A DNA stretch of 64,000 nucleotides, from the IMG/VR virus record IMGVR_UViG_3300002140_000159, positions 1 through 64,000 of that record. The stretch is one strand, 5' to 3'. This document shows, piece by piece, positions 42,506 through 56,386 of this stretch (the first letter of the stretch is position 1; each line of letters begins with the position of its first letter). This DNA is from a virus. The position numbers and the translations under genes are program-made. The notes beneath the pieces are model-generated. The model worked only from the letters and a program-made list of their open reading frames with translations, was not told the origin of the DNA and ran no database searches.

Positions 42506-43720
42506 ATGGCGTCTAGCTCTGCCATTGGAGGGATGACGCTTAATGCTTCGCCGCTTAATGAAAAAGCGCCGAGCATTAGCTCCCTTGGGGCAGCGCTACA
42601 TGTTGCCTCTGTTAGCACAGCGACACTGGCTACAAGCTACATTCTTGAAGCCAGTATTCAAAGTACTTCTGTTGCTCAAGGCAGCGTAGACAAAACTTCT
42701 CCGCTTGCTGTTAACGCTGCAGCTCAGAGCAAGTCCACCGCTGGTATCAATGTTGATTACATAGTTGCAAGCGATGTGCAAAGCAATGTTATTGCTACTT
42801 CTAATCTTGCTCGTATTGTTATTCTGCAGTCCGGCTGGTCTACAGCCGCAGTTAACACAAGTCCATTAGGTAGCGCAACGCTTCATAGTGGTGATGCTGG
42901 TGTTGTCAGTGCCGATTCCACAGCTAACGCCACACTAAGTGTTTGGAACGCTTTAGAAGCTTTTGCAAAAGTAGAGTCTTGGGCTTTTGGCGCGTTGTTC
43001 AGCACAATACCTTTAGCAGATCTGGCTGGAACAAGTGCAATCAGCAATGTTGTTGCTGCCAATCTGGCTATTGAGGCTCCACTAGCAGGCCAGGTTGATG
43101 TAATTGCTGTCAGCACAGCAAGTACTTCAGTTATCTTCAGGCTGGGTGCTGTCGCTTTGGTAGATAGCCAATCAAGCGGTACCGTCGTACTGCAATCCCC
43201 ATTGCAAGGTCAGCTGACTACACAGTCTGAGCTGGCAGGCAACATCACGCTGGTGTCTCCTATCGGTAGCGAAATTGTGGTGACTTCAGCGTCTTCTGCT
43301 GGCTTGGTGAACACCATCCCAATGGATGCGGTGATTCACACAATCAGCCGCAGTAACGGCGCAGTAAAGGTGGACTACGTTGTCTCAGGCAATGTCGTCA
43401 CCTTGGTGTCTATGGGAGGAGGTTTAACAAACACTATTCCTATTGACGGTGTACCAGGCACAGGAACAGTCGCAAGTAGTGAGGGTGGCATTGTGCTGCG
43501 CATACCTTTTGATGCTGCTGCGCAAGGCGTTGTAAGCACCGCAGCCAAAGTCCGGAAATTTCACACCAATCCTTTTGACACTATCCGACCTACAGGCGCT
43601 GATGTGCTGCCTTATAGGATTGCCGCCGAGTTAAGTACAACAACCGGCGTCTACGTGAATAGGGCGATAACTGCAGAAGTCACATTAATCCAACCAACTT
43701 TGTATAAACGCGTCGCATAA
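42506..43720 (+). CDS. Ser/Ala/Thr/Val-rich fibre- or spike-like structural protein
   Basis: 404 aa of repetitive beta-rich composition with repeated ...LVNTIPMD.../...LTNTIPID... segments. Confidence 0.5.
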   Translation: MASSSAIGGMTLNASPLNEKAPSISSLGAALHVASVSTATLATSYILEASIQSTSVAQGSVDKTSPLAVNAAAQSKSTAGINVDYIVASDVQSNVIATSNLARIVILQSGWSTAAVNTSPLGSATLHSGDAGVVSADSTANATLSVWNALEAFAKVESWAFGALFSTIPLADLAGTSAISNVVAANLAIEAPLAGQVDVIAVSTASTSVIFRLGAVALVDSQSSGTVVLQSPLQGQLTTQSELAGNITLVSPIGSEIVVTSASSAGLVNTIPMDAVIHTISRSNGAVKVDYVVSGNVVTLVSMGGGLTNTIPIDGVPGTGTVASSEGGIVLRIPFDAAAQGVVSTAAKVRKFHTNPFDTIRPTGADVLPYRIAAELSTTTGVYVNRAITAEVTLIQPTLYKRVA

Positions 43721-43729
43721 GGAGAAACC

Positions 43730-44755
43730 ATGAGCATTAAATTTAGCAACAACGCATCCGCCACGCTGGCAGCTGGGGTAGCCGCATCGGCAGTGTCTTT
43801 GACGTTGACCTCTGGTCAGGGGTCTTTGTTTCCAGCTCTGGCTGCAGGAGATATTTCTTACGCTACGTTAGCCAACACAGCTAACCAGTTGGAGATTGTC
43901 AGAGTAACTGCCCGATCAGGCGATGTTTTGACGGTTGTGCGTGCGCAAGAAAACACCTTGGCTATTGCATTTACCGCTGGCGATAAAGTTGAACTGCGGG
44001 TCACTGCTGCAGGACTGAAAACAATTCAGGACGAGGCTGCTGCTGCAGACTCGGCATTAAAAACAACTGTAGATTCGCGCAATGTTTCTACTGGAACAGG
44101 TCTGCAAGGTGGGGGAAACCTTTCTGCAAACCGCACATTGAGTATTGCAAATACAGCAGTGACTGCAGGTGCTTTTGGCTCAGCCTCAGCGATACCCACT
44201 TTCACTGTGAACCAGCAAGGTCAGTTGACTGCAGCAGGGACTGTGGCTTTGGACTTGTCTGTCAAAGTTAGCAAATCCGGTGACTCAATGAGCGGCAACT
44301 TGACCATGACTGATGGTGCGAACGTTGTATCTTCACAAGGTGGGGACAACGCCAGAAGCACTGGCTTCAAGATGGCAGACGGCCAGGACCTCGGTGAGAT
44401 GAACCGGAGCAACCAATACATTGATAACCGAGTGAACAACTGCAATGGGTACATCAACGCAGGCAACTGCGCAGGCGACTTGCAGTACGCGCCGCCTAAC
44501 GGCAACTGGTGGGAGTGGTATTCGGGCAAGTCGCCTCAAGGTGCATGGGCCAACAGTGGCTCATACGACGGTGCTGGCGGCACAACGTACTCATACAACG
44601 CTGTAAGCGTCGGCTTGAACTACGCGGCTTATGGCTTGAGTGCTGATGAAATTGGCGGCTCTGAGTACACAAGGACGTACACCAACTGCAACTGCGGTGC
44701 ATTCAACTGTCGTACCAATTGCAACTGTAATTGCAACTGCAACTGCGGCAAATAA
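43730..44755 (+). CDS. tail fibre protein ending in an (Asn-Cys)n peptide
   Basis: Common phage-fibre N-terminal domain (SGQGSLFP...YATLANTANQLEIVRVTARSGDVLTVVRAQENT). C-terminus is TNCNCGAFNCRTNCNCNCNCNCGK. Confidence 0.7.
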   Translation: MSIKFSNNASATLAAGVAASAVSLTLTSGQGSLFPALAAGDISYATLANTANQLEIVRVTARSGDVLTVVRAQENTLAIAFTAGDKVELRVTAAGLKTIQDEAAAADSALKTTVDSRNVSTGTGLQGGGNLSANRTLSIANTAVTAGAFGSASAIPTFTVNQQGQLTAAGTVALDLSVKVSKSGDSMSGNLTMTDGANVVSSQGGDNARSTGFKMADGQDLGEMNRSNQYIDNRVNNCNGYINAGNCAGDLQYAPPNGNWWEWYSGKSPQGAWANSGSYDGAGGTTYSYNAVSVGLNYAAYGLSADEIGGSEYTRTYTNCNCGAFNCRTNCNCNCNCNCGK

Positions 44756-44766
44756 AAGGACTTTCA

Positions 44767-45666
44767 ATGAAAAAAATCAAATTTACTGCCGCTGTCTTTG
44801 CACATACAGGTCCGATACCAGCAAATCATGTGGTTCGTTTAGAAGTTATCAACGAAGTTTTGGTGGCTCGCTACTTTTGCGCACAGCCAGCCGAGTTACA
44901 TGATGGTCTTGATGTCCATCTAAGTCTGCCTGCCTTTGACCCAATGACAACGCCTTTGTTGCGCCAGATCATAAAAAATGGGCCTTACATTGCAGGCGAG
45001 GCGGTAACTAACGAACCAACACTTCAAGGTCGCGTGTTTCGTGAGACAGGAAGGCACATTTTTCGCGCTCCGCTGCGCGCTAATACAGTGTTGGGTCATT
45101 GGGAGCGCCAAGACTTTTCCGCTTTTGCTTTTCCGTTTGATGCGGCATTGAATGTCTCTGAGCCTTACAACCATTTTGTAGATAGCGTGTCTGTCAAAGG
45201 CGAAATTGGGCGCAACAGTAAACTGCGTAACGCGCAGACGTTGTTCCTAATGTACGTTGATGAAGCCGATGCTTCTATTAACCAGTGGACGCTGTGTTAC
45301 ATTACTTCGCCCATGTTTTTGCTAGAAGACACCACGCAAGGAGAGTGGGAAGTTGCACCGGCTGGCCTTAACTACTCCGCCTTGCTGCCTCAAGTAAGTT
45401 TGAGCGCGCCAGCCAATGTAGCTCCAGATGGCTGGGCTACAGTCAACGTAACACTAAACCGCGATAACACGCCACTGGCTTACGATGGTGAGATGGTAAT
45501 TGAAGCGGTCAGTGGCTACTTGCCTAAGCAGCGCTTACAAGTGCACAACGGCACAGCGTCTTTTAGAGCTATGGCGTTGGGTCTTCAAAGTGGCGACGCT
45601 TTACGAGTCAAAGTAGGCACTCGCCTGATTTCAGGGATGGCTTCGGTATCTATTGAAGTGGCGTGA
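44767..45666 (+). CDS. hypothetical protein with C-terminal Ig-like (Big-like) domain
   Basis: ATG at 44767 with an AAAGGA RBS. The ORF-track start at 44731 is a TTG inside the fibre gene. The C-terminus has a beta-sandwich-like pattern. Confidence 0.5.
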   Translation: MKKIKFTAAVFAHTGPIPANHVVRLEVINEVLVARYFCAQPAELHDGLDVHLSLPAFDPMTTPLLRQIIKNGPYIAGEAVTNEPTLQGRVFRETGRHIFRAPLRANTVLGHWERQDFSAFAFPFDAALNVSEPYNHFVDSVSVKGEIGRNSKLRNAQTLFLMYVDEADASINQWTLCYITSPMFLLEDTTQGEWEVAPAGLNYSALLPQVSLSAPANVAPDGWATVNVTLNRDNTPLAYDGEMVIEAVSGYLPKQRLQVHNGTASFRAMALGLQSGDALRVKVGTRLISGMASVSIEVA

Positions 45667-46511
45667 ACTTGATGCGCTTTACTGAACTGAGTCGGCAGTT
45701 TGATTTGGAGCGTGCCGCTTTGCAGGTGCGCTCCCCAATTGAGCCAGGAGACGTTGTTCGGGTAGTACTTCCTGTTAGCAGCCAAGCACTAGCTGATGCA
45801 GCTACAGCAGCGCAAGCTGCTTACCCGCTGGGTCAGTTTGCTTCTGTGAGTGGGCAACAAAGCCGTGCTTATTATGAAAGCATCTCTTTGGCGTTCAACC
45901 CCGACTCAGCTATTGAACCTTTGCACAGCACGTTGGGTTCTGCTGCGTTAACTCCAGCAGAGCATTACTACGCTACGCCCGCTACCTTGGTAAAAATAGG
46001 GTCGTTGCGCGATTCCTACTACGACACCTACGGGTTTCGTTTGCCTACTACAGCAGCAAGTAAGGAGTTAGCGTTGCTGACTTCAAAGCTTAAACGCAGT
46101 TTGGTGCGCTCGCGCATGTCGGTGATGCGTGCAGGCAGTGCTACAACTTCCGGGTTGTATTGGGGTTGGCACAAAGATGAGAGCGTGTTTGAAAACCTGC
46201 GAATCAACATTCATGTGACAGACTCGCCTGATCACCGGATACAGGTTATGCGGGAAGACCGCAAGCCAGCGTCTATGGATGACCCTGCTTTGACTGACCA
46301 CCGCTTTGAAGTGGGTTATGGCTATTCATGGGATACCCATTTACCGCACAGAGCTTGTTCTGTTGGTGTGCCAAAGCAAGACCGCACTGCCATTGTTCTG
46401 GGGGTTTCTCCTTGGTTTGACTACGACGCCCAAGCTGATGCTTGGACGCCTAATGAATTTTTTGGACGTAAGCATCCATTTGCAATGCTGCGCGATGGAG
46501 ATGTGCTGTGA
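45663..46511 (+). CDS. cupin / 2OG-Fe(II) oxygenase-like protein
   Basis: WHKDES...LRINIHV ... LPHRACS ... DRTAIVL gives an HxD...H facial-triad arrangement. The start overlaps the previous stop (GTGA). Confidence 0.5.
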   Translation: MNLMRFTELSRQFDLERAALQVRSPIEPGDVVRVVLPVSSQALADAATAAQAAYPLGQFASVSGQQSRAYYESISLAFNPDSAIEPLHSTLGSAALTPAEHYYATPATLVKIGSLRDSYYDTYGFRLPTTAASKELALLTSKLKRSLVRSRMSVMRAGSATTSGLYWGWHKDESVFENLRINIHVTDSPDHRIQVMREDRKPASMDDPALTDHRFEVGYGYSWDTHLPHRACSVGVPKQDRTAIVLGVSPWFDYDAQADAWTPNEFFGRKHPFAMLRDGDVL

Positions 46512-47236
46512 ACGAGTGGCCTTTGCAACTTGCTAAACATCAAGGTCGGTTTGACGACTTGATTTTTTCGCCTCTTGATTTACCTGCTCCTCCTGAAATA
46601 GACGCAGGGCGTTTTGTGCAGTGGATGCAGCTAGGTCAACAGCCTGAGACTTCTTTGCCGCGTGTGGCGTTTGAAAACTTAACTGGGCAGAGCTACCCTT
46701 GGCTGCTGCGTTCCTTAATCGGAGATTTGTCCGCTTTGGCTGAGGCTTTTCCTGAAGTACACCGTTATTTGTTGTGCTTTCCGTTCAAGCAAGTAAAGTC
46801 GCTGACTTTCTTGGCACAGCATGGGACGCAGGAGGTGTTTACACACACAGACTCTGATGACTTGTACGGAATGCGGTTTTATTTGACTGTCAAGAATTCA
46901 GAAGGTCTGCATTTTTTCAAAGCCAAAGAACGCTACGACCATTTTCCTACCTATGCACGCAGTGCAGAAGGGGTGCTTCAGCGAGCGGATTGGGACAAGC
47001 ACTTCTGGATGAGCCAGCCAATGTACGCCACACTTCCTGCAGGATGTCGCACCTTTGTTTTGAATAACTCTAGAGCGGCGCACGCGGTAGCTGCCAATAC
47101 TTGTGTGCTGGGTGAACGCATTGCCGTGTTGGTACGCGGCGAATTTGATACGCAAGCCCGTGATGCGCTGTTAGCCCGGTCTGTGGCAAAACACGCAGCC
47201 CATGCTTTGTGGTTTGACCAGCCGGTGGGGGATTAA
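46508..47236 (+). CDS. Asp/Asn beta-hydroxylase-like cupin oxygenase, paralogue 1
   Basis: VFTHTDSDDLYGMRFYLTV ... FVLNNSRAAHAV ... ERIAVLV. Confidence 0.55.
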   Translation: MNEWPLQLAKHQGRFDDLIFSPLDLPAPPEIDAGRFVQWMQLGQQPETSLPRVAFENLTGQSYPWLLRSLIGDLSALAEAFPEVHRYLLCFPFKQVKSLTFLAQHGTQEVFTHTDSDDLYGMRFYLTVKNSEGLHFFKAKERYDHFPTYARSAEGVLQRADWDKHFWMSQPMYATLPAGCRTFVLNNSRAAHAVAANTCVLGERIAVLVRGEFDTQARDALLARSVAKHAAHALWFDQPVGD

Positions 47237-47241
47237 ATCTT

Positions 47242-47964
47242 ATGACTGAATGGCCTTACAAGTTGGCTCAGCACGCAGGTCGCTACGACGATTTGATCTA
47301 TTGCCCGCTGGACCTGCCTTTGCCACCAACAGTAGACGTGCCGCAGTTTTTGGAGTGGATGGCAAGCGTGCAAGACCCGCAAATGCTGACTACCAAAAAT
47401 TCCTACGAGCAGGCAAAAAAACTTCCGTACCCATGGCTATCGCGTTTTTTGAAAGACGCAATGCAACTTAAAGAAGCTTTTCCTGAGCTTTACGACTATC
47501 TGTTGTTGTATCCGTTTGATGCCCTGACATCTCTGATGTTTTTGGCGCAGAAAGGACACCAGGATGTTTTTACGCACTGTGATCCTGATGGTCTGTACTG
47601 TATGCGGCTGTACTTGACAGTCAAAAATTGCGAAGGGCTGCACTTTTTTAAAGCTCGCCAGCCTTTTGATCACTTTTCGACTTACTCGCGTAACGAAGCA
47701 GGCGACATTGTCAGTGCTGACTGGGATAAGTACTTTAAAACAGATGAGCCGACATACGCCCATCTGCCTAAGCCGACACGAGCATACGTACTTAATAGCG
47801 CCAGGGCTGCACATGCTGTGGACCGCAACACTTGCGAGTTGGGTGAGCGTATTTGTGTGCTTGTTTTTGGAACAGCCAACGTCCAGCGACGGGACGCTTT
47901 GATTGAGCGCTCGCTCAAGCTTTACAGCAAAAACGCTATTTGGTACGACAAGGATCTGTCATGA
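47242..47964 (+). CDS. Asp/Asn beta-hydroxylase-like cupin oxygenase, paralogue 2
   Basis: VFTHCDPDGLYCMRLYLTV ... YVLNSARAAHAV ... ERICVLV. It is clearly alignable with the previous ORF along its whole length. Confidence 0.55.
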   Translation: MTEWPYKLAQHAGRYDDLIYCPLDLPLPPTVDVPQFLEWMASVQDPQMLTTKNSYEQAKKLPYPWLSRFLKDAMQLKEAFPELYDYLLLYPFDALTSLMFLAQKGHQDVFTHCDPDGLYCMRLYLTVKNCEGLHFFKARQPFDHFSTYSRNEAGDIVSADWDKYFKTDEPTYAHLPKPTRAYVLNSARAAHAVDRNTCELGERICVLVFGTANVQRRDALIERSLKLYSKNAIWYDKDLS

Positions 47965-48716
47965 AGCTAACTGTTTGCTTGAAAATGTTTGTGGCTGTAC
48001 CACTGCTGCCGTTCTTTATTGTGTGGGCGCTGTGGGGCGTTTCTGAGTGGCCATTGGTAGTTGCAGCAGGCATCTTGTTGTACTACCCAATACAGCAACT
48101 TGGACAGGCTAATGGTTATCACAAGCTGTTTGCGCACAGAGCATTTATTGCAAGGTCTTGGTATCCGTATGTGGCTTGTTTTTTTAGCTCAATTGCTTTT
48201 TATGGTGATCCATTAAGTGCAGCCATGATTCACAGAATCCACCACAGGTACGCAGACACTAGCAAAGACCCGCACTCACCATCACACGGTCGTTTACACG
48301 CCTACATTGGATGGATGGCTTCATACAAGCCAAACACTTCTGACGCAAGGTGCATTACTGACTTGCTGCGGGACTACCCCTGGATGATTACGTTTCGCAG
48401 GTATGAGTGGATGTTGCCTTGGGTTTTCCACGCGTCGCTGTTTGCCGTTTCACCACTTGTAAGCTGCGCGGTGTTGATTGGCTGCTTGCTGTCTATCCAC
48501 AACGCTTTAATAGTTAATGCGTTTTCACACAACCCAAGCCTTGGTAGCGAAGACAAGGCGGTTAATTCTTTGTGGATGGCACGTTGGGTAAACCCAACCT
48601 TTTTGCATAAGCACCATCACACACATGGCAGCGCTGTTGATTATTCGGCTCAAGGTGTCACGGACTACTGGGCCAAGTTTATAAATCGTTTTATTGCCTT
48701 ACCTAGTACTAAATAA
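47961..48716 (+). CDS. membrane His-box di-iron enzyme, delta-9 acyl desaturase-like
   Basis: GYHKLFAHRAF, HRIHHRYADTSKDPHSP and HKHHHTHG boxes with hydrophobic helices. The ATG at 47961 overlaps the previous stop (ATGA). Confidence 0.7.
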   Translation: MKLTVCLKMFVAVPLLPFFIVWALWGVSEWPLVVAAGILLYYPIQQLGQANGYHKLFAHRAFIARSWYPYVACFFSSIAFYGDPLSAAMIHRIHHRYADTSKDPHSPSHGRLHAYIGWMASYKPNTSDARCITDLLRDYPWMITFRRYEWMLPWVFHASLFAVSPLVSCAVLIGCLLSIHNALIVNAFSHNPSLGSEDKAVNSLWMARWVNPTFLHKHHHTHGSAVDYSAQGVTDYWAKFINRFIALPSTK

Positions 48717-48728
48717 AGTGGTTTCACC

Positions 48729-49460
48729 ATGATGCTTAATTTCAATCTCCGAATGGACAACAAACGAACCACAGCGCTGTACTACGTTGGGCTTGTTGGT
48801 GCTTTGTTTGCTGTCTCTGACGCTAGCCTTGGTTTGGCTTTAACCGCCTTGTGCGTCCATGTGGTTGTCATCTCATTGTTCTCTGCTGTTGTTCACCGCT
48901 ACTTTTGCCACAGGGCGTATGAAGCTAATCCAACACTGATGTGGCTTGTTGCGTTTCTACCAGTTGCCTATGGCTATTCAACACCTGCTGGCTGGGCGGC
49001 ATTGCACTCAGCACACCATGCGTTTGCCGACACAGACAAAGACACCCACCTGAAAGGATGGGCTGGCTTGTTTACTGCTAACTACCGTTTGCCACCATTC
49101 AAGTTTGCTCTTGCTGGCAAGTGGTTTCACAGCACTCGACATGCTTTCCTGCACAGTAATGCGCTTGGGGTTGTGCTTGTTTGGCACTTGCTCTTGCTGT
49201 TTATATCTGTCGATGTTTTCCTGTGGGTCGGCATGATGCCGCTGTTTACACTTCATTTTTGCAATGGACTGCACCGTGTGTTTAGTCACAAAGGAGCACA
49301 AGCTCACAACCGTTGGTACTTAGAGTACGTATGCCCAATGGGTGGCGAGTGGATACATGACGAGCATCACGACACTGCTAAAAAGCCAGTCTTCTCAAAT
49401 CGTTGGTACGAGGTAGACACTGGTTCAATATTTGTACGACTGTTTAGGACTGCGTCATGA
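48729..49460 (+). CDS. second His-box di-iron desaturase/hydroxylase-like membrane protein
   Basis: HRYFCHRAY, HSAHHAFADTDKDTH and IHDEHHD boxes with several TM helices. Confidence 0.65.
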   Translation: MMLNFNLRMDNKRTTALYYVGLVGALFAVSDASLGLALTALCVHVVVISLFSAVVHRYFCHRAYEANPTLMWLVAFLPVAYGYSTPAGWAALHSAHHAFADTDKDTHLKGWAGLFTANYRLPPFKFALAGKWFHSTRHAFLHSNALGVVLVWHLLLLFISVDVFLWVGMMPLFTLHFCNGLHRVFSHKGAQAHNRWYLEYVCPMGGEWIHDEHHDTAKKPVFSNRWYEVDTGSIFVRLFRTAS

Positions 49461-50149
49461 TTCGAGCAGAAGTTGCAGGAGTAGACACAGCCAACTACAT
49501 TTTTGACACTGGTCTAACGTTTGGCGTGGACTTGGGCCATGAAGTGCTTGAACTGGCCATGACCAAGATTGACTTGTTTCCAAAGCGACACAATTACAAC
49601 CGTGGGGACAGTCCAAAAGAGTTGATAAAAATGATTGGCGCAAACAAAGCGCGAGAACTCTACAGGCGTACAGCTCAGATGAAAGCGCTTTGCGGTAGTG
49701 AACTCATTACATTTGACCAGCACTTTTTCCCAGATGCACTTAGCCAACAACTTATTGAGTCTGCACCGCAGTGGTTGCAAGACCTCTCTGTTGGCGACCC
49801 GTCCACGATGCTACAGGTATCAAGCAATGGCAACTACCTTGGCACCCACAAAGGACATAAGCGCAGAGCATCTATGTTTATGTTGCTGCAAGGCGGTGGG
49901 CAAGAAACTAGGTGGTATCGGAATAGAGAAGAGTTTGAGGTCATTGACCCATTGCGAATTCCAGATCACGACAAAATTGAACACGTTGTGACTGCAATCA
50001 TGGAGCCGTGGCGCTGGTATGTATTTAACCATTTTGAATGGCATTCAGTACATAACTTTGCTGCTCAAAGCATTCGTGTCAACATGGGGCTTGATTTCAA
50101 CAATGTAACAGCCGCCGACATTGTTAAGCAGTTAGTTAAACGAGGTTAA
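49457..50149 (+). CDS. Asp/Asn beta-hydroxylase-like cupin protein (H-x-G variant)
   Basis: LGTHKGHKRRASMFMLLQG ... WYVFNHFEWHSVHN ... IRVNMGL. The start overlaps the previous stop. Confidence 0.45.
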   Translation: MIRAEVAGVDTANYIFDTGLTFGVDLGHEVLELAMTKIDLFPKRHNYNRGDSPKELIKMIGANKARELYRRTAQMKALCGSELITFDQHFFPDALSQQLIESAPQWLQDLSVGDPSTMLQVSSNGNYLGTHKGHKRRASMFMLLQGGGQETRWYRNREEFEVIDPLRIPDHDKIEHVVTAIMEPWRWYVFNHFEWHSVHNFAAQSIRVNMGLDFNNVTAADIVKQLVKRG

Positions 50150-50731
50150 TTTATTGCGTTCAACAGCTTGATTTAATGATACGTCGAATGGTAAAACAGC
50201 CAGCATCAATAAAACCTCGGTTCTTACAGGCTGCTGTCCCAGTACACGTTGGTTAATTAATGTGTAACGAGATAAGCAATGTTGAGGAATTATTTCAGGC
50301 ACGCTAACTTGGTATAGGTTGAATCTGCCTAAGCGAGCTTGAACAATATGGTTTTTCCAGCGAGGGTTATTAGCCCGGACAGAATAAAAACCAGTATATC
50401 CAAGAGATTCCATGTAAGTTACAGCTGCATCAAAAGCTGGCCCTAGCCCGGATAGCCTACCTGAAAAAACACTTCCGGTGGGGCGATTACAGATCATAAC
50501 TAAGGTGGATAACGGAGCATCCGGCCAAGGCCAGAAAGTAACAAAAGCAACAAGTGTGTCTTTATTGTCAAAAGCACCAAAGCAAATACAGCCAGTATTA
50601 AGGTTTTGAGAAAAAGCCTGCGCATACGGAATAGCGTCAGGAAGTTTAGGAGATAACATTATTAAAGGCTGAGAATCAAATACTGATTGCACAGCTATAG
50701 CGTCATTTAATGTCAAGAGGCGTGTTTTCAT
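50132..50731 (-). CDS. GNAT-like acyl/acetyltransferase
   Basis: An R-x-x-G-x-G motif (GRLSGLG) in a roughly 200-aa alpha/beta ORF. It is AT-rich, on the opposite strand, and its end overlaps the previous gene by 18 nt. Confidence 0.4.
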   Translation of the reverse strand: MKTRLLTLNDAIAVQSVFDSQPLIMLSPKLPDAIPYAQAFSQNLNTGCICFGAFDNKDTLVAFVTFWPWPDAPLSTLVMICNRPTGSVFSGRLSGLGPAFDAAVTYMESLGYTGFYSVRANNPRWKNHIVQARLGRFNLYQVSVPEIIPQHCLSRYTLINQRVLGQQPVRTEVLLMLAVLPFDVSLNQAVERNKLTSFN

Positions 50732-50779
50732 ACGTTATTATTTTATATGCAATAGAATATTGGTATTGCTTATAAAATA

Positions 50780-52159
50780 ATGCAATATTTTAAACATAGG
50801 CAATTAATGACTCAATTTAGAATTAAAACTCAAGCGCCAGATGGTACTGAGCCAATATTGCTATACGACAATCAGACTAGTAGCCTGACTTGGGAAAATG
50901 GACAGTCTGTTATTCCTGTACAGCCGCGTGAATATAAAACTGCAACTGCGGTATCGGCTGATGCGCCTGGATTAAAGAGTGTCATCAAAACACTCAAAGT
51001 CAGCTTGGGATTGTCTTGCAACTACGAATGCAACTATTGCTCGCAGCGCTTTGTGCCTCACGCTGATTCCAGCAACCCTGGAGACATTGAGCCTTTTGTA
51101 GCGCAGCTTACAGGGGCGTTGTCCCAAGCGCCAGACTGCATCGAGTTCTGGGGCGGTGAGCCATTTGTTTACTGGAAAACACTAAAACCTCTGGCTGAAC
51201 GCTTGCGCAAGATGTACCCAGAGACAATCTTTAGCGTCATCACTAACGGCACACTGCTTGATAAAGAAAAAAACCAGTGGCTTGATGATCTTGGTTTTGC
51301 TGTCGGTATTAGTCATGACGGACCTGGCTACCATGCACGCGGTCTTGATCCAATGGATGACCCAGAAAAACGCGCTGCCATCATGGATTTATACGACCGT
51401 CTAAAGCCAAAAGGACGCATCAGCATTAACGCCATGATGCACAGAGACAATCCAAGTCGCGCTGCAGTACAGGACTGGCTGCAGGAGCGCTTTGGCGACG
51501 ATGTGATGATTGGCGAGGGGGCGTTTATTGACCCGTATGACGAGGGTGGCTTGGCAGCAACGCTGAAGACCCAAGCTGAGCAGATTGGCTACCGCGCTAC
51601 TGCCTTTGATGAAATACGTACTGGCAAGATTGGTAATTTCGATATTGCACATCAGAAAATCAAGGGCTTTTTAGATTCAGTAAAGACCGCACGCCCCGCA
51701 AGCAACCTTGGCCAAAAGTGCGGCATGGACAAGGAAGACAACATGGCCGTAGACCTGCATGGCAATGTCATTACTTGTCAAAACGTGAGCGCCGCCTCAA
51801 CTGGGCCCAACGGTGAAAGTCATTTGATTGGCAAGCTTGATGACCTGGCTGGCGTAAAGATGAAGACCGCTACCCACTGGAGCAAGCGCGACGAATGTAC
51901 GAGTTGTCCAGTGCTGCAACTTTGTCACGGTTCCTGCATGTTCTTGCACGGTCCATTGTGGGACGCTGGCTGTGACGCTAGCTACTCAGACAACATCCCA
52001 TTCTTTGCTGCTGGCCTGGAGTATTTGACGGGCTGTAAGCCGATCTATATCGAAGGTGAATTCAGAGAGTCTCGCAAAGACATCTTTGGTCTGGTCAATG
52101 GAATACCGGAAGCGCCTCCCAAAAAGAAGCCTTTCCCAATTCCGGTTGTATCAATCTAA
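50780..52159 (+). CDS. radical SAM / SPASM-domain maturase
   Basis: CNYECNYC is the CxxxCxxC cluster (C80, C84, C87). The full SPASM pattern is C-x13-G-x4-C (KCGMDKEDNMAVDLHGNVITC) plus C-x2-C-x5-C-x3-C (CTSCPVLQLCHGSC). The start may be 50807. Confidence 0.85.
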   Translation: MQYFKHRQLMTQFRIKTQAPDGTEPILLYDNQTSSLTWENGQSVIPVQPREYKTATAVSADAPGLKSVIKTLKVSLGLSCNYECNYCSQRFVPHADSSNPGDIEPFVAQLTGALSQAPDCIEFWGGEPFVYWKTLKPLAERLRKMYPETIFSVITNGTLLDKEKNQWLDDLGFAVGISHDGPGYHARGLDPMDDPEKRAAIMDLYDRLKPKGRISINAMMHRDNPSRAAVQDWLQERFGDDVMIGEGAFIDPYDEGGLAATLKTQAEQIGYRATAFDEIRTGKIGNFDIAHQKIKGFLDSVKTARPASNLGQKCGMDKEDNMAVDLHGNVITCQNVSAASTGPNGESHLIGKLDDLAGVKMKTATHWSKRDECTSCPVLQLCHGSCMFLHGPLWDAGCDASYSDNIPFFAAGLEYLTGCKPIYIEGEFRESRKDIFGLVNGIPEAPPKKKPFPIPVVSI

Positions 52160-52189
52160 GTCAACTCACTTTTTATAGCTAGGGCCATC

Positions 52190-52588
52190 ATGGACAGCTT
52201 TTTTATGTCTGCATTGGTTTTTATTCACTTGATGATGCCTATGGCAGCGCAAGCACAAGTTGTTATGAAAACCCCGCTGAGCTACTCACTAACTGAGTAT
52301 GGGGTGGTCTTAGCTACTGCTCTGTTGGGGGGGCTAGCGAATTGGTACACCAAAGCCAAGAATGATCCGACTGGTAGTTACAGCGCTGCTGCACTAATTG
52401 GTGAGCTATGCGTGTCCGCCTTTGCAGGCGTCATTGCATTTTGGCTGTGTGAGTACTTTGAAATGCAACCTTTATTGACTGCAGCTGCGGTTGGTATGGC
52501 GGGTCACGCTGGCGCTAGGGGCTTGGATTGGCTTGAGCGGTATTTGCGCAAATCTGCTGAACAGAAACTAGGCTTAACCAAGGAGTAA
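52190..52588 (+). CDS. putative holin
   Basis: Multi-TM small protein directly upstream of the endolysin gene. The start codon is uncertain. Confidence 0.5.
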   Translation: MDSFFMSALVFIHLMMPMAAQAQVVMKTPLSYSLTEYGVVLATALLGGLANWYTKAKNDPTGSYSAAALIGELCVSAFAGVIAFWLCEYFEMQPLLTAAAVGMAGHAGARGLDWLERYLRKSAEQKLGLTKE

Positions 52589-52592
52589 CTTA

Positions 52593-53018
52593 ATGAACCT
52601 TGAACTTACCAAACAACTGCGTCGTGATGAAGACGACGTGTTGTCTGCGTACACAGACTCACTGGGCTACTTAACTATTGGTGTGGGGCGTTTGATTGAC
52701 AAGCGCAAAGGTGGTGGCATCTCTGCGGAAGAGTCTGCTTATTTGTTGGCTAACGATATACGCAACAAAACAGCAGCAGTCATTAAGGCATTGCCTTGGG
52801 CTGAGCATTTAGATCCAGCTCGCTTAGGCGTACTGGTGAACATGGCCTTCCAGCTAGGCATTACTGGTTTGCTTGGGTTTAAAACGACTTTAGCTCTAGT
52901 ACAAGGTGGAAATTACGACCGCGCTGCTGAGGCCATGGATGATTCATTGTGGTCCAGGCAAACACCAGCACGCTGTGCTCGCTTACAAAAGCAGATGCGA
53001 ACTGGGGTGTGGCAATGA
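52593..53018 (+). CDS. endolysin, GH24 (T4-lysozyme-like)
   Basis: RRDEDDVLSAYTDSLGYLTIGVGR contains the E...D...T catalytic arrangement. Confidence 0.85.
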   Translation: MNLELTKQLRRDEDDVLSAYTDSLGYLTIGVGRLIDKRKGGGISAEESAYLLANDIRNKTAAVIKALPWAEHLDPARLGVLVNMAFQLGITGLLGFKTTLALVQGGNYDRAAEAMDDSLWSRQTPARCARLQKQMRTGVWQ

Positions 53019-53482
53019 TGGCGTTGCTGGCTTATTGGCGAGTTGGCTTTGTTGCTGTCTTGATTGCAGCAGCAGGTGTCTGGCACTTGGCTGACAAGTC
53101 CAAGAGCATTGACGATGCAGTGGAACTTGTCAGAGCTGAGTACATCAATGCAGCGCTTGCTGCCAGTGAAGCGGCACGCTCTCGTGAGCTTCAATTAATC
53201 GCAACAAACCAGAAAGTTGTAAATGACTTCCAGACTCAAAAGAATCGCAATGCCGCTGCTGTTGTCATTAGTGCTGGTAAGTTGCGCGACCTCGAAGCCG
53301 CCATTGCCAGTGCTGATACCGCCAACAGCTATACCGCAAGCCCCAGCGGAATTGATGCTCCCTTTGCCACCATCGCCAGTGAATGTGGACGCGCTCTTGC
53401 AGAGATGGAAGGACATGCTACAGCGATGGCAAGCACAGCGAAGGCTTTGCAACAGTACGCCACTAGCTTGCGCGTGAAATGA
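53015..53482 (+). CDS. Rz: i-spanin (Rz-like)
   Basis: N-terminal TM (MMALLAYWRVGFVAVLIAAAGVW) followed by coiled coil. ATGA overlap with the endolysin stop. Confidence 0.7.
   Translation: MMALLAYWRVGFVAVLIAAAGVWHLADKSKSIDDAVELVRAEYINAALAASEAARSRELQLIATNQKVVNDFQTQKNRNAAAVVISAGKLRDLEAAIASADTANSYTASPSGIDAPFATIASECGRALAEMEGHATAMASTAKALQQYATSLRVK
53223..53477 (+). CDS. Rz1: o-spanin (Rz1-like lipoprotein), embedded in Rz in an alternate frame
   Basis: Lipobox LLSLVLVSC followed by a Pro-rich mature part. The gene lies entirely within the Rz gene. Confidence 0.7.
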   Translation: MTSRLKRIAMPLLLSLVLVSCATSKPPLPVLIPPTAIPQAPAELMLPLPPSPVNVDALLQRWKDMLQRWQAQRRLCNSTPLACA

Positions 53483-53850
53483 CCAGAGCATCTAGGAACC
53501 CAGTCAGGGAGCCAGATGCACTTATCTTTGACGCCTTTGTCCGTAAGTGGGCAAGGCTGCTAAACCTGCAGAACTGGCGACTTGAGCGCGGTTCAAAAGC
53601 AGCAAAGAATGCCATGGCTTCGGTCGAGTTTGATTTGCCAGCTCGCTTGGCAGTCTACCGACTAGGGGACTTTGGCTCCGAGGCGATAACTTCAAGATCG
53701 CTTGAAGACACCGCTATTCACGAACTTCTTCATGTCCTGCTGCTTGACTTGATCCTTATTGCCAGTGGTAAGCCCACGGATGAGGAACTTGAGGCAGCAG
53801 AACATGCAGTGATCAATGTTTTAGAAAAACTACTGAAAGAGCTTGCATGA
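53479..53850 (+). CDS. small HExxH-motif protein (possible minimal zincin)
   Basis: DTAIHELLHVLL with a downstream EAAEH. Confidence 0.45.
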   Translation: MTRASRNPVREPDALIFDAFVRKWARLLNLQNWRLERGSKAAKNAMASVEFDLPARLAVYRLGDFGSEAITSRSLEDTAIHELLHVLLLDLILIASGKPTDEELEAAEHAVINVLEKLLKELA

Positions 53851-55318: not shown

Positions 55319-56386
55319 TTAACCTAGCATTTCCACACGATTTGGCTCAGCTGTTTCACGCCATCTGGCCTTGATGTATTTCTCAGTTGTGTTCTTTGTA
55401 GCATGGCCACAAAGCAGCTGGATTCGCTCAATCGGAATGCCAGCAAGCCACATGTCTGTAGCTCCTTTTCCTTTCAGATCTCTGAAGCCAAATGAAGCCA
55501 TGTCAGCCAGCTCTGGGACGGTTTCCCGCACCTTCACCTGCGCTCGGCGCAGCATAGATGAAATGCCATCGTATGTGTAGCCAGTACCATCACGGGCGTG
55601 GATCAATGGCTGATGAATCATTGGGATTTGACCGATGGATTTTCGGATCATTACTTCCAATGTTTCAGTCAAGCCAACGTCCACAAGTCTGCCGGTCTTG
55701 TACTGCCTGAAGCTCAGGACACGAACTCCATCTTTGTTCTTGAGGACTGAGGGAGTCCACAAGATGATGTCGCTCTCTGGTCGTTGCAAGGTACGGAATG
55801 TCATCTCCATGAGCAGTCGCACCTGGAAAGGTGCAGCAGCGAACACAGCTTTGTATTCCTGGTTCGTGACATAGCGTTCACGTTGCTTTTCAGCATTGCG
55901 AACAACACCACTGGCCCTCATACAAGGGTTGATGGTGATGTCGCCTTGGTTAGACCGGATCATCCAAGACATACAACTAGACAGGCAAGCCCTCTCTCGA
56001 TTTGCACGCACGCCTCGGTTCATCTTTGCGCCCATATCCAAGTATTCAGATACGTGGTGGGGCTTGACCTCGGATGGTGTCATTGAGCCAAACCCTGCGC
56101 GAAGAAATGAGGAGGCGTTGATGTAGTCTTCCAGCGTCCTTGCAGACAGGTCTTTGACTTTGACCCTTGCAGCACAGTCCAAAAGAAACTGATCCAAGTA
56201 CCAAGACATGGTTCCCCAGATACCAGATGGGTCGTTGTAGTGGTCTGCACGTTTCTTTGCAAGGCTCAGGTCTTTGCCTAAGTTCTCCCACTTGTTAGTG
56301 TCTGGATGGACGTAGAAGAACACACCGTGGTTTAGATAAGTTCGGCGTGGCAAGCCTTGGCTGGCATCTTTGCGTTTACGGCCCAT
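55319..56386 (-). CDS. int: tyrosine integrase, lambda-Int-like with N-terminal arm-binding domain
   Basis: N-terminus MGRKRKDASQGLPRRTYLNHGVFFYVHPDTNKWENLG compares with lambda MGRRRSHERRDLPPNLYIRNNGYYCYRDPRTGKEFGLG. The C-terminus has LCGHATKNTTEKY. Confidence 0.9.
   Translation of the reverse strand: MGRKRKDASQGLPRRTYLNHGVFFYVHPDTNKWENLGKDLSLAKKRADHYNDPSGIWGTMSWYLDQFLLDCAARVKVKDLSARTLEDYINASSFLRAGFGSMTPSEVKPHHVSEYLDMGAKMNRGVRANRERACLSSCMSWMIRSNQGDITINPCMRASGVVRNAEKQRERYVTNQEYKAVFAAAPFQVRLLMEMTFRTLQRPESDIILWTPSVLKNKDGVRVLSFRQYKTGRLVDVGLTETLEVMIRKSIGQIPMIHQPLIHARDGTGYTYDGISSMLRRAQVKVRETVPELADMASFGFRDLKGKGATDMWLAGIPIERIQLLCGHATKNTTEKYIKARWRETAEPNRVEMLG

What the first reader, a model, noticed from the sequence alone, without database searches (positions are those of the whole stretch)
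50780..52159. Phage-encoded SPASM radical SAM maturase with a ~65-aa N-terminal extension and no separate precursor ORF
CxxxCxxC lies at residues 80-87, and a complete SPASM motif lies in the C-terminal third. The roughly 65 residues before the core (FRIKTQAPDGTEPILLYDNQTSSLTWENGQSVIPV...) are beta-rich. They could be a peptide-recognition (RRE-like) element.

I found no small Cys-rich ORF adjacent to this gene. The only obviously Cys-rich candidate substrate nearby is the fibre tail 6 kb upstream. The gene sits just upstream of the holin, so it is presumably expressed late with virion assembly.
Basis: partly seen in the sequence, partly recalled or inferred. Interest (0 to 1): 0.65.

Follow-up and report, generated by a model that had tools for sequence, protein, structure and literature searches.

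The report
Phage enzyme that modifies tail-fibre tips
This phage gene encodes a radical-SAM enzyme that almost always travels with a tail-fibre protein ending in a run of Asn-Cys repeats, so it most likely cross-links the fibre's tip chemically, a kind of virus-particle modification I could not find described in the papers searched.

Summary
ORF 50780..52159(+) encodes a 459-aa radical SAM/SPASM protein with CxxxCxxC at residues 80-87, a full 7-Cys SPASM motif and a conserved beta-rich N-terminal extension. It has no adjacent small Cys-rich gene, and a holin and a lysozyme lie just downstream.

- Of 64 homologous loci with at least 4 kb of upstream flank, 57 carry a same-strand upstream ORF ending in (N/D/A-C)n. 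Control ORFs gave 5 of 3852.
- Four of the seven exceptions have the same repeat directly followed by a self-cleaving Hint domain.
- In the reverse direction, 18 of 19 viral ORFs ending in NCNCNCNC with enough flank have this enzyme downstream.
- In eight loci the two genes are only 1-19 nt apart.

The cassette occurs in podo-, myo- and siphoviruses and in prophages, mostly of freshwater Burkholderiales. It usually also carries an Ig-like protein and 2OG-Fe(II) oxygenases.

The N-terminal extension is a three-stranded beta-sheet, not a canonical RRE.

The most likely chemistry is multiple Cys-to-Asn/Asp thioether cross-links. This is inferred by analogy with NxxcB, PapB and QhpD, not shown. 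I found no prior description. Interest is high.

The parts
50780..52159 (+). Radical SAM/SPASM maturase, 459 aa (the finding)
   Evidence: Pfam PF04055 scores 36.4 bits against a cut-off of 29.5. TIGR04085 SPASM scores 32.9 against 27. PHROG 1802 gives E 2e-58. The AF2 model has pLDDT 75 and pTM 0.77. The best Foldseek matches are anSME, ChlB, CteB and TigE.
50810..50929 (+). Conserved N-terminal beta domain of the enzyme (residues 11-50), not a canonical RRE
   Evidence: AF2 predicts strands at 12-18, 26-30 and 35-38 with pLDDT above 90 and no helices. Y29 and S34 are invariant. The domain is aligned in most family representatives. There is no PqqD match.
51017..51040 (+). CxxxCxxC radical SAM cluster motif (residues 80-87, CNYECNYC)
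51719..51973 (+). SPASM region with seven invariant Cys (314, 333, 373, 376, 382, 386, 398)
43730..44755 (+). Tail fibre protein, 341 aa, the proposed substrate
   Evidence: PHROG 8469 tail fiber gives E 4e-31 over residues 1-202. PDB 8jov tail fiber protein gives E 1e-21 over residues 2-111. It is the only real ORF in the window with an alternating x-Cys tail.
44681..44752 (+). C-terminal Asn-Cys tail TNCNCGAFNCRTNCNCNCNCNCGK (8 Cys, 8 Asn), the proposed site of modification; its 3' part, 44716..44746, is a CAACTG hexanucleotide array
   Evidence: The same tail type sits upstream of the enzyme in 57 of 64 loci, against 5 of 3852 control ORFs.
44767..45666 (+). Ig-like all-beta companion protein (cluster c0), the most frequent partner of the cassette
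   Evidence: It lies between substrate and enzyme in 74 of 110 loci. The AF2 model has pLDDT 86 and is all-beta, and Foldseek returns only generic Ig-like or beta-sandwich matches. It has no invariant Cys.
45663..46511 (+). 282-aa protein (cluster c5), homologue of Ralstonia phage RSP15 ORF046; function unknown, with an HxD motif visible
   Evidence: blastp against RSP15 gives E 3e-16. It is present in 10 loci. It has no Pfam, PHROG or PDB match.
46508..47964 (+). Two paralogous genes of unknown function (242 and 240 aa; 46508..47236 and 47242..47964)
   Evidence: The L003 homologue (87% identical to the 240-aa copy) also matches the 242-aa copy at 55%. They form cluster c8 in 3 loci. They have no family match.
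47940..49460 (+). Two membrane fatty-acid-desaturase-like genes (47940..48716 and 48729..49460)
   Evidence: NCBIfam DesA-family desaturase gives E 1.5e-11 and 0.006, both far below the cut-off. They form cluster c7, found only in the window's closest relatives.
49457..50149 (+). 230-aa protein, a possible divergent 2OG-Fe(II) oxygenase in the position held by PF13759 proteins in other loci
   Evidence: PF13759 gives E 0.07. hhalign against cluster c1 gives E 0.049 over 82 columns. Two His align with the invariant His of c1. The assignment is weak.
50132..50731 (-). 199-aa gene of unknown function on the opposite strand, inserted just before the enzyme
   Evidence: It is conserved in L003 at 87%. 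It has no family match.
52190..53018 (+). Lysis genes directly downstream: holin 52190..52588 and lysozyme 52593..53018
   Evidence: PF16083 scores 73 bits and PF00959 scores 38.5 bits.

Best explanation
The gene encodes a radical SAM/SPASM maturase. Its substrate is not a small leader-bearing peptide but the extreme C-terminal Asn-Cys repeat of the phage's own tail-fibre protein (window 44681..44752).

Proposed mechanism:
1. The CxxxCxxC [4Fe-4S] cluster cleaves SAM reductively.
2. The 5'-deoxyadenosyl radical abstracts a hydrogen from an Asn or Asp residue of the tail, most likely at C-beta.
3. A neighbouring Cys thiolate forms a carbon-sulfur bond. The thiolate is possibly held on an open iron site of an auxiliary SPASM cluster.
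4. Repeating this along the (N-C)n run would build a ladder of thioether rings.

The product would be a covalently stapled fibre tip that is insensitive to reduction and resistant to proteases. The rings could lie within one chain or link chains of the fibre, which is presumably trimeric.

What is shown: the enzyme class, and the tight, two-way, cross-lineage genomic coupling of the enzyme to the NC-tail protein.

What is inferred: that the tail is the substrate (my confidence about 0.85-0.9), that the product is a thioether (about 0.5), which atoms are joined, and the biological role at the fibre tip.

The Ig-like protein and the 2OG-Fe(II) oxygenases that usually accompany the pair probably act on or bind the same tip, for example by hydroxylating Asn/Asp or as an adhesin or cap. 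Nothing tested here shows this.
For: Enzyme class:
- The Radical SAM and SPASM models score above their curated cut-offs.
- Seven invariant SPASM Cys are present.
- The fold matches anSME, ChlB, CteB and TigE, which all act on peptides or proteins.
- The best end-to-end family-model alignment is to the PapB ranthipeptide maturase.

Forward association:
- Of 64 loci with an enzyme homologue and at least 4 kb of upstream flank, 57 have a same-strand upstream ORF ending in at least three x-Cys units. Other ORF segments gave 5 of 3852.
- Four exceptions (Achromobacter phage JWF, L024, L185, L194) have the NC repeat followed at once by a Hint domain. PF05203 scores 47.5 bits and starts at the Cys that ends the repeat. 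Autocleavage there would leave the repeat at the C-terminus.
- Ralstonia phage RSP15 has a short tail...NTNCQCGN.

Reverse association:
- A scan of viral contigs for DNA encoding NCNCNCNC gave 65 ORFs of at least 90 aa with the motif within 12 residues of the stop.
- Of these, 49 have a close enzyme homologue downstream on the same strand, and 4 more have a distant rSAM homologue on the same strand (downstream in one, about 1.8 kb upstream in three).
- Eleven of the 12 without one have less than 2.7 kb of downstream flank.
- With at least 6 kb of flank the count is 18 of 19.

Minimal unit: eight loci have substrate and enzyme only 1-19 nt apart.

Independence of the observations:
- Enzyme identity ranges from 37 to 91%.
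- Substrates range from 92 to about 690 aa, with unrelated N-terminal parts.
- There are at least 25 different gene arrangements.
- The carriers are an N4-like podovirus (the window), an Ackermannviridae myovirus, a siphovirus and lambda-like prophages.

Chemistry precedent:
- Tail composition is C 47%, N 33% and D 4%. The residue before each Cys is N in 70% and D in 8% of cases.
- Known radical SAM thioether acceptors beside Cys donors are Asn (NxxcA, C-beta), Asp (freyrasin/PapB) and Asp/Glu in a protein subunit (QhpD) (PMC8326336; PMC12373016).
- PapB can also couple a Cys to a peptide's C-terminal residue. This fits the tail's strict C-terminal position.
Against: - There is no biochemical or mass-spectrometric evidence of any kind.
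- The enzyme reaches no curated equivalog cut-off: PapB 59.5 against 340, anSME 43 against 349, QhpD 41 against 453.
- Its nearest solved folds carry out four different reactions: formylglycine formation, thioether formation, cyclopropanation and epimerisation. Homology therefore does not fix the chemistry.
- A ring between adjacent or alternate residues would be smaller than any characterised ranthipeptide ring.
- The tails often end in Cys-rich caps (CCC, CGC) that have more Cys than Asn/Asp acceptors.
- In the window itself the two genes are 6 kb apart, with seven other genes between them.
- Co-location with O2-dependent 2OG oxygenases is unexplained.
Confidence: 0.55

Rival explanations
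1. The enzyme-substrate pair is the same but the chemistry is different. The enzyme acts on the NC tail but makes something other than Cys-to-Asn/Asp beta-thioethers. Candidates are sulfur-to-alpha-carbon (sactionine) links, oxidation of Cys to formylglycine or a dehydro residue, epimerisation, or carbon-carbon links.
For: The best structural match is anSME, a formylglycine former (E 6e-8). The best sequence match among solved structures is TigE, a cyclopropyl synthase (E 9e-13). The epimerase EpeE also matches. No equivalog model is reached.
Against: The substrate is nearly half Cys, and Asn/Asp precede 78% of the Cys. That is the donor/acceptor pairing of known ranthipeptide-type enzymes. 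By established knowledge the anSME recognition motif is C/S-x-P/A-x-R, and it is absent from the tails. TigE acts on Val methyl groups, and the tails contain almost no Val (0.4%). I count seven SPASM Cys; from memory, not tested here, anSME has eight.
Confidence: 0.25
2. The NC tail is mainly a metal-binding or disulfide ladder along the fibre axis. This would be analogous, from my own knowledge, to the HxH iron sites in the T4 gp37 needle. Under this reading the radical SAM enzyme acts on another component of the cassette or only assists assembly.
For: Alternating Cys would all face one side of a beta-strand. A related small-ORF family carries an HTH (HxH-like) motif just before its NC repeat (L037, L089, L045, L105, L131). 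Other conserved partners exist: the Ig-like protein in 74 of 110 loci and the oxygenases in 68 of 110.
Against: Eight loci have only the NC-tail gene and the enzyme side by side between the two ends of the module. The Ig-like partner has no invariant Cys and is missing from that position in a third of loci. A SPASM enzyme beside a Cys-rich C-terminus is the standard signature of Cys-based cross-linking (NCBIfam families listed).
Confidence: 0.1
3. The enzyme is an auxiliary or 'moron' gene unrelated to the fibre. Examples would be a sulfatase maturase for the host, a nucleotide-modifying viperin-like enzyme, or a counter-defence factor that happens to sit before the lysis genes.
For: In the window the gene is separated from the fibre by 6 kb and by an oppositely oriented gene. 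GenBank once labelled the JWF homologue 'anaerobic sulfatase-maturating enzyme'. A viperin family model gives E 1e-11 over the core only.
Against: The two-way association with NC-tail proteins holds across more than 100 loci and several phage morphotypes. All equivalog scores are far below their cut-offs. A full SPASM domain is present; from memory, not tested here, viperins lack one.
Confidence: 0.03

Closest known systems
PapB / freyrasin (ranthipeptide maturase, NCBIfam NF047865)
   Same: It is a radical SAM/SPASM enzyme. It is the best end-to-end family-model alignment (residues 70-387 against model positions 3-317 of 330). It makes several thioethers between Cys and acidic residues in a repetitive Cys-rich sequence, and it can use a peptide's C-terminal residue as acceptor (PMC12373016).
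   Different: The score is 59.5 bits against a cut-off of 340, so this protein is not a member. The substrate here is a virion fibre of 92 to about 690 aa. Its repeat period is 2 (N-C) rather than CxxxD, and Asn dominates over Asp. The enzyme also has an N-terminal beta domain of about 70 aa.
NxxcB / NxxcA (Streptococcus orisratti)
   Same: It is the only characterised radical SAM enzyme that joins a Cys sulfur to the C-beta of an Asn (PMC8326336). That is the donor/acceptor pair the NC tail offers.
   Different: It makes a single NxxC ring in a small quorum-sensing-linked peptide with a leader. No model of it is in the libraries used here, so similarity could not be measured.
QhpD / quinohemoprotein amine dehydrogenase gamma subunit
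   Same: It is a radical SAM/SPASM enzyme that installs Cys-Asp and Cys-Glu thioethers in a subunit of a protein complex rather than in a released peptide (PMC8326336). It sets the precedent for a protein-type substrate.
   Different: TIGR03906 scores 41 bits against a cut-off of 453. It is a cellular enzyme with a single dedicated substrate, and it has no link to viruses or to repeats.
CteB / SCIFF peptides
   Same: The SPASM fold matches (Foldseek E 4e-7; profile E 4e-9). Its substrate is Cys-rich. From my own knowledge, a substrate Cys binds an open iron site of auxiliary cluster I.
   Different: CteB has a canonical N-terminal RRE and acts on a roughly 45-aa peptide with a leader. Here there is no RRE and no leader peptide.
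anSME (anaerobic sulfatase maturase)
   Same: It is the top structural match (TM 0.49/0.60). Its CxxCx5CxxxC block aligns with this protein's. It acts on a protein substrate without an RRE.
   Different: TIGR03942 scores 43 bits against a cut-off of 349. From memory, anSME has eight SPASM Cys; this protein has seven. The sulfatase motif is absent from the tails.
Phage fibre C-terminal maturation devices (Peptidase_S74 intramolecular chaperone, Hint autoprocessing)
   Same: They act on the distal end of fibres during assembly. In some cassette variants a Hint domain follows the NC repeat. An S74 chaperone fibre precedes the NC-tail gene in L086.
   Different: Those devices are autocatalytic and work by proteolysis or folding. 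They are not a separate radical enzyme that alters side chains.

Membership tests
Radical SAM superfamily | CxxxCxxC motif for the SAM-binding [4Fe-4S] cluster; Pfam PF04055 above its gathering score | tested here: met
   CNYECNYC lies at residues 80-87 and is invariant in 34 homologues. PF04055 scores 36.4 bits against 29.5.
SPASM subfamily | C-terminal Cx9-15Gx4C ... CxxCx5CxxxC ... C motif for two auxiliary clusters; TIGR04085 above its cut-off | tested here: met
   C314-x13-G-x4-C333, C373xxC376x5C382xxxC386 and C398 are all invariant. TIGR04085 scores 32.9 against 27.
PapB-family ranthipeptide maturase (NF047865) | Equivalog score of at least 340 bits | tested here: not met
   59.5 bits
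PapB-family ranthipeptide maturase (NF047865) | Substrate with repeated Cys donors and carboxylate/amide-bearing acceptors | tested here: inconclusive
   The tails are 47% Cys, with N or D before 78% of the Cys. The spacing is different, and no product is known.
Anaerobic sulfatase maturase (TIGR03942) | Equivalog score of at least 349 bits; substrate motif C/S-x-P/A-x-R | tested here: not met
   43.2 bits. None of the 84 tails listed shows the motif (read from that list).
QhpD (TIGR03906) | Equivalog score of at least 453 bits; genomic link to qhpA/qhpC | tested here: not met
   41.4 bits. The neighbours are phage fibre and lysis genes.
RRE-bearing RiPP maturases | PqqD-like winged helix-turn-helix recognition element (three strands plus three helices) | tested here: not met
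   There is no PqqD or other RRE-type Pfam match at E of 0.01 or better. AF2 shows three strands and no helix in residues 1-70.
RiPP system in the strict sense | Short precursor with a leader or follower that is removed to release a modified peptide | tested here: not met
   The substrates are fibre proteins of 92 to about 690 aa. No peptidase or exporter recurs in the cassette. The only cleavage device found is a Hint domain that removes what follows the repeat.
Sactipeptide/ranthipeptide-type thioether synthases (by reaction) | Formation of a Cys S-C(alpha/beta/gamma) bond dependent on SAM cleavage | not testable with these tools
   This needs mass spectrometry and NMR of the product.
NxxcB | Sequence similarity to NxxcB; a Cys-to-Asn C-beta thioether | not tested
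   No NxxcB model or sequence is available in the libraries used. The chemistry is known from PMC8326336.

The most novel reading that the evidence does not exclude
A mobile phage cassette uses a radical SAM enzyme to weld the very tip of tail fibres into a ladder of Cys-Asn thioether rings, possibly linking the three chains. If so, it would be, as far as I could find, the first radical-enzyme post-translational modification of a virion structural protein. It would also be a RiPP-like pathway whose 'peptide' is the end of a receptor-binding fibre. The cassette is shared by podo-, myo- and siphoviruses and tuned further by oxygenases, and in some lineages by a halogenase.
Probability: 0.45. Interest if true: 0.88.

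Novelty: new variant of a known kind. Interest (0 to 1): 0.8.

Why it matters
Phage host range is set at fibre tips. From my own knowledge, the chemical modifications described so far on virion proteins are few: autocatalytic cross-links, disulfides and glycosylation.

A dedicated radical enzyme that covalently staples a fibre tip would be a new layer of virion maturation. The family has at least 283 clusters at 50% identity. The cassette is common in phages and prophages of abundant freshwater Burkholderiales.

It would also extend RiPP-type radical SAM chemistry in two ways:
- to large structural proteins that lack a leader peptide and a canonical RRE;
- to a very simple, repeat-encoded substrate, (Asn-Cys)n, that could be useful for peptide stapling.

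Two cultured phages carry the cassette, Achromobacter phage JWF and Ralstonia phage RSP15, so the idea can be tested directly.

Tried and rejected
- Megablast of 43700..53500 against GenBank phages gave no match.
- Pfam, NCBIfam and PHROG scans gave nothing, or only sub-threshold hits, for the companion genes at 44767..50731.
- A PDB sequence search with the 282-aa protein gave nothing credible.
- Profile-profile comparison of the window's unknown proteins with the 2OG-oxygenase clusters was inconclusive (best E 0.03-0.05). I therefore do not call them oxygenases, apart from a weak lead for 49457..50149.
- The first run of that comparison timed out.
- The promoter/terminator consensus scan found no more sites than shuffled sequence, so it says nothing about transcription units.
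- No tRNA genes were found.
- Three Cys-rich small ORFs near the enzyme were examined as possible precursors. All were rejected because they lie out of frame or antisense inside other genes.
- The Ig-like companion was considered as the substrate and rejected. It has no invariant Cys, and no gene lies between substrate and enzyme in the eight adjacent-pair loci.
- The anSME and viperin readings were rejected on curated cut-offs and on the substrate motif.
- Eight literature searches found no description of this system. The library lacks most subscription-journal papers, so prior work cannot be excluded.
Full report
**1.

ORF 50780..52159(+) encodes 459 residues.
- CNYECNYC occupies residues 80-87.
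- The C-terminal third carries the full SPASM pattern: C314-x13-G-x4-C333, C373xxC376x5C382xxxC386 and C398.
- All ten of these Cys are invariant in 34 homologues.
- Pfam Radical_SAM (36.4 bits against 29.5) and NCBIfam SPASM TIGR04085 (32.9 against 27) both exceed their curated cut-offs.
- A holin (PF16083) and a lysozyme (PF00959) follow directly.
- Among 75 ORFs of at least 20 aa around the gene, the only three Cys-rich ones lie out of frame or antisense inside other genes. There is no adjacent precursor-type ORF.
- The fibre gene 43730..44755 ends in TNCNCGAFNCRTNCNCNCNCNCGK, 6.0 kb upstream. It is a true fibre: PHROG tail fiber E 4e-31, and a solved tail fiber protein, 8jov, E 1e-21 over residues 2-111.

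**2. What the enzyme is**

No curated equivalog is reached: PapB 59.5 bits against 340, anSME 43 against 349, QhpD 41 against 453.
- The only end-to-end family-model alignments are to the PapB ranthipeptide maturase and to a Clostridium peptide maturase.
- A profile of the family finds TigE (8vpo, E 9e-13), CteB (5wgg, 4e-9) and anSME (4k37, 2e-7, full length) among solved structures.
- The AlphaFold2 model (pLDDT 75, pTM 0.77) matches anSME, ChlB, CteB and TigE about equally, with TM 0.45-0.6.

It is therefore a SPASM enzyme of the kind that modifies peptides or proteins, without a close characterised relative. Those relatives perform different reactions. TigE, for example, is a cyclopropyl synthase (PMC10878394). 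Homology alone does not give the chemistry.

**3. The N-terminal extension**

Residues 11-50 are modelled with pLDDT above 90 as three beta-strands (12-18, 26-30, 35-38) with no helix. Pfam finds no PqqD-like domain.
- The extension is therefore not a canonical winged-helix RRE.
- It is nevertheless conserved. Y29 and S34 are invariant.
- Alignments of most of the 150 best family representatives start at residues 10-27, down to about 31% identity.
- The homologues in phages RSP15 and JWF also align from residue 10-14.
- A role in holding the substrate, for instance by strand pairing, is possible but untested.

**4. The substrate question, forward direction**

Homologues at about 50% identity in Ralstonia phage RSP15 and Achromobacter phage JWF lie just downstream of fibre genes. 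Those fibre products carry ...NTNCQCGN(stop) and ...QNCNCDCNCNCSC followed by a Hint domain.

Across 87 loci from viral and bacterial collections, 64 have at least 4 kb of upstream flank.
- In 57 of the 64 there is a same-strand ORF within 7 kb upstream that ends in at least three x-Cys units.
- Only 5 of 3852 other ORF segments in the same loci do so.

The seven exceptions break down as follows.
- Four (JWF, L024, L185, L194) have the NC repeat immediately followed by a Hint domain. PF05203 scores 47.5 bits and begins at the Cys that closes the repeat. Hint autoprocessing would leave the repeat at the new C-terminus (inference from the known Hint mechanism).
- RSP15 has a two-unit tail.
- L004 has a mobile-element insertion that truncates the enzyme gene.
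- L202 is a fragmentary match.

**5. The substrate question, reverse direction**

A scan of viral contigs for DNA encoding NCNCNCNC returned 120 loci.
- In 65 of them the motif lies within 12 residues of the stop of an ORF of at least 90 aa.
- Of these, 49 have a close homologue of the enzyme (at least 35% identity) downstream on the same strand, at 1 to 5300 nt (median 1272).
- Four more have a distant radical SAM homologue on the same strand. It follows the NC-tail ORF directly in one locus and lies about 1.8 kb upstream of its stop in three.
- Eleven of the 12 without one have less than 2.7 kb of downstream sequence.
- With at least 6 kb of flank the count is 18 of 19.
- For motif occurrences that are internal, non-coding or of low complexity, the count is 2 of 11.
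- Eight loci have the two genes 1-19 nt apart.

The association is thus reciprocal and holds over several kinds of variation.
- Enzyme identities run from 37 to 91%.
- Substrates run from 92 to about 690 aa, with unrelated N-terminal parts.
- At least 25 gene arrangements occur.
- More distant pairs also exist, with enzymes of 24-26% identity beside other NC-tail ORFs (L037, L089, L101, L110, L128, L144).

**6. Anatomy of the tails**

There are 84 distinct tails, with a median of 11 residues and 6 Cys.
- Composition is C 47%, N 33%, G 4%, D 4% and A 4%.
- The residue before a Cys is N in 70% of cases, C in 10%, D in 8% and A in 6%.
- The last residue is Cys in 70 of 84 tails.
- A typical tail is (NC)3-5 followed by a cap such as DCCC, CGC, DCYC or GK.
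- The preceding 20 residues look like a final beta-strand (VRIYRNT, IAVRRTQYNF, VRLRTVNVLT, EYTRTYT) but are not conserved between substrate families. Recognition probably rests largely on the repeat itself (inference).
- Further NC dipeptides occur in the distal domain upstream.
- In the window the last five NC units are encoded by a CAACTG hexanucleotide array.
- Close relatives differ in unit number, for example NCNCDCCC, NCNCNCDCCC and NCNCNCDCACCC. This suggests expansion and contraction of the repeat.

**7. Companion genes**

I examined the genes between substrate and enzyme in 110 loci.
- An Ig-like protein (window 44767..45666) occurs in 74 loci. Its AF2 model (pLDDT 86) is all-beta and matches only generic Ig-like or beta-sandwich folds. 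It has no invariant Cys. In L086 it lies after the enzyme instead.
- A protein of about 210 aa occurs in 68 loci and belongs to PF13759, 2OG-FeII_Oxy_5 (39.4 bits against 27).
- A PF13640 2OG oxygenase occurs in 12 loci.
- A protein of about 235 aa and unknown function occurs in 20 loci; JWF gp029 resembles it by eye.

The window and its two or three closest relatives have an expanded set.
- The 282-aa protein is shared with RSP15.
- There are two paralogues of 242 and 240 aa.
- There are two membrane desaturase-like proteins (NCBIfam DesA family, E 1.5e-11 and 0.006, far below the cut-off).
- A 230-aa protein has a weak PF13759 signal (E 0.07; hhalign E 0.049).
- An unknown gene lies on the opposite strand.

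Their roles are unknown. Hydroxylation of Asn/Asp in the tail is an obvious guess and nothing more.

**8. Context**

The window is an N4-like phage.
- It has a 3530-aa virion RNA polymerase (PHROG 2206, 1757 bits), a portal and a DNA polymerase.
- It comes from a JGI metagenome.
- The enzyme family has at least 283 clusters at 50% identity with E of 1e-30 or better. A separate search found 2328 proteins at E of 1e-10 or better, none of them named.
- In genomes it sits in prophage-like regions of Limnohabitans, Polaromonas, Rhodoferax and other Burkholderiales.
- The same cassette in an Ackermannviridae myovirus, a siphovirus, a podovirus and lambda-like prophages indicates a mobile fibre-tip module.

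**9. Mechanism**

Two things are shown: the enzyme class and its coupling to the NC-tail proteins. The rest of this section is inferred.
- The tail is the substrate.
- The enzyme abstracts a hydrogen from Asn/Asp.
- It joins a neighbouring Cys sulfur to that carbon, repeatedly.

The precedents are as follows.
- NxxcA has a Cys-Asn C-beta thioether, and freyrasin has six Cys-Asp thioethers.
- QhpD makes Cys-Asp/Glu links in a protein subunit (PMC8326336).
- PapB couples a Cys to a peptide's C-terminal residue (PMC12373016).

I count seven SPASM Cys here. From memory, anSME has eight, and in CteB a substrate Cys binds an open iron site. Seven Cys would be compatible with such an open site.

The rivals are, in order: other chemistry on the same substrate; a metal or disulfide ladder with the enzyme acting elsewhere; and an unrelated auxiliary gene. 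They are weighed in the rival section of this report.

**10. Comparison and novelty**

The protein is a member of the radical SAM superfamily and of the SPASM subfamily. It is not a member of the PapB, anSME or QhpD equivalogs, and it lacks an RRE.
- It most resembles ranthipeptide-type thioether synthases in its likely working.
- It most resembles QhpD in having a protein rather than a leader peptide as substrate.
- Eight full-text searches found no description of radical SAM enzymes linked to phage fibres or to Asn-Cys repeat tails. The library does not cover most subscription journals.

I rate it a new variant of a known kind: a known enzyme class with a new substrate class, a new biological setting and a new recognition architecture.

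Noticed in passing
window 15218..25810 (+), 55319..56386 (-): The window is an N4-like phage with a 3530-aa virion RNA polymerase (PHROG 2206, 1757 bits). It nevertheless carries a tyrosine-integrase-like ORF (PF00589, 24.2 bits, just under the 27.1 cut-off). From my own knowledge, N4-like phages are usually regarded as strictly lytic.
   Followed up: partly
window 47940..48716 and 48729..49460 (+): Two adjacent membrane fatty-acid-desaturase-like genes sit inside a phage fibre/lysis module. NCBIfam DesA family gives E 0.006 and 1.5e-11, far below the cut-off. Both also match the unknown family PHROG 35201. They are found only in the window's closest relatives.
   Followed up: partly
window 46508..47236 and 47242..47964 (+): This is a tandem pair of paralogous genes with no match in any family library; the L003 homologue of the second copy matches the first at 55%. 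Both show an H-x-D motif (FTHTD / FTHCD).
   Followed up: partly
window 44716..44746; L006-L017, L154-L169: The NC tail is encoded by a CAACTG hexanucleotide tandem array. Closely related loci differ in the number of NC units (NCNCDCCC, NCNCNCDCCC, NCNCNCDCACCC). This suggests length variation of the fibre tip by slippage.
   Followed up: partly
L002 7735..8295 (Achromobacter phage JWF gp028), L024, L185, L194: In these fibre proteins the NC repeat is followed directly by a Hint autoprocessing domain (PF05203, 47.5 bits in JWF). The Cys that ends the repeat is the first Hint residue.
   Followed up: partly
L021 / L025 7644..8556; also L108, L120: Three tandem small genes (92-109 aa) each have a shared N-terminal GNGxxTFGDGT motif and a C-terminal NCNCNC(A)CNC tail. 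They lie upstream of one enzyme gene, so one maturase appears to serve several substrates.
   Followed up: partly
L086 3637..4839: A tryptophan-halogenase-family gene (PF04820, 105.9 bits) follows the enzyme and the Ig-like gene in a cassette whose 133-aa substrate is extremely rich in Asn and Cys. Whether it is also present in the other loci that carry the same 134-residue substrate ORF (L061, L070, L112, L118) was not checked.
   Followed up: partly
L037, L089 (also L045, L105, L131): A family of small ORFs (67-82 aa) ends ...HTHxFxDDYSTACNCNCNCNCxRGxL. In L037 and L089 a radical SAM gene only about 25% identical to the window's enzyme lies 5-7 kb away. The HTH motif recalls metal-binding HxH motifs of fibre needles.
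   Followed up: no
L101, L128, L144 (also L060): A 134-residue open frame ends CQTCQGCQSVRCQYCQTQCTNCNCNCNCSNCDCGDDGG. A distant radical SAM homologue (23-25% identity) starts about 1.8 kb upstream of its stop. This looks like another Cys-rich tail/maturase pairing in viral contigs.
   Followed up: no
L004 2600..8200: A block with recombinase-like ORFs (named by eye from the translations, not scanned against any family library) lies immediately upstream of the enzyme homologue. The gene there starts at an internal position, so it lacks the N-terminal domain and no NC-tail gene is present.
   Followed up: no
window 50132..50731 (-): This 199-aa gene on the opposite strand is wedged between the cassette and the enzyme gene. 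It is conserved at 87% in L003 and has no family match.
   Followed up: no
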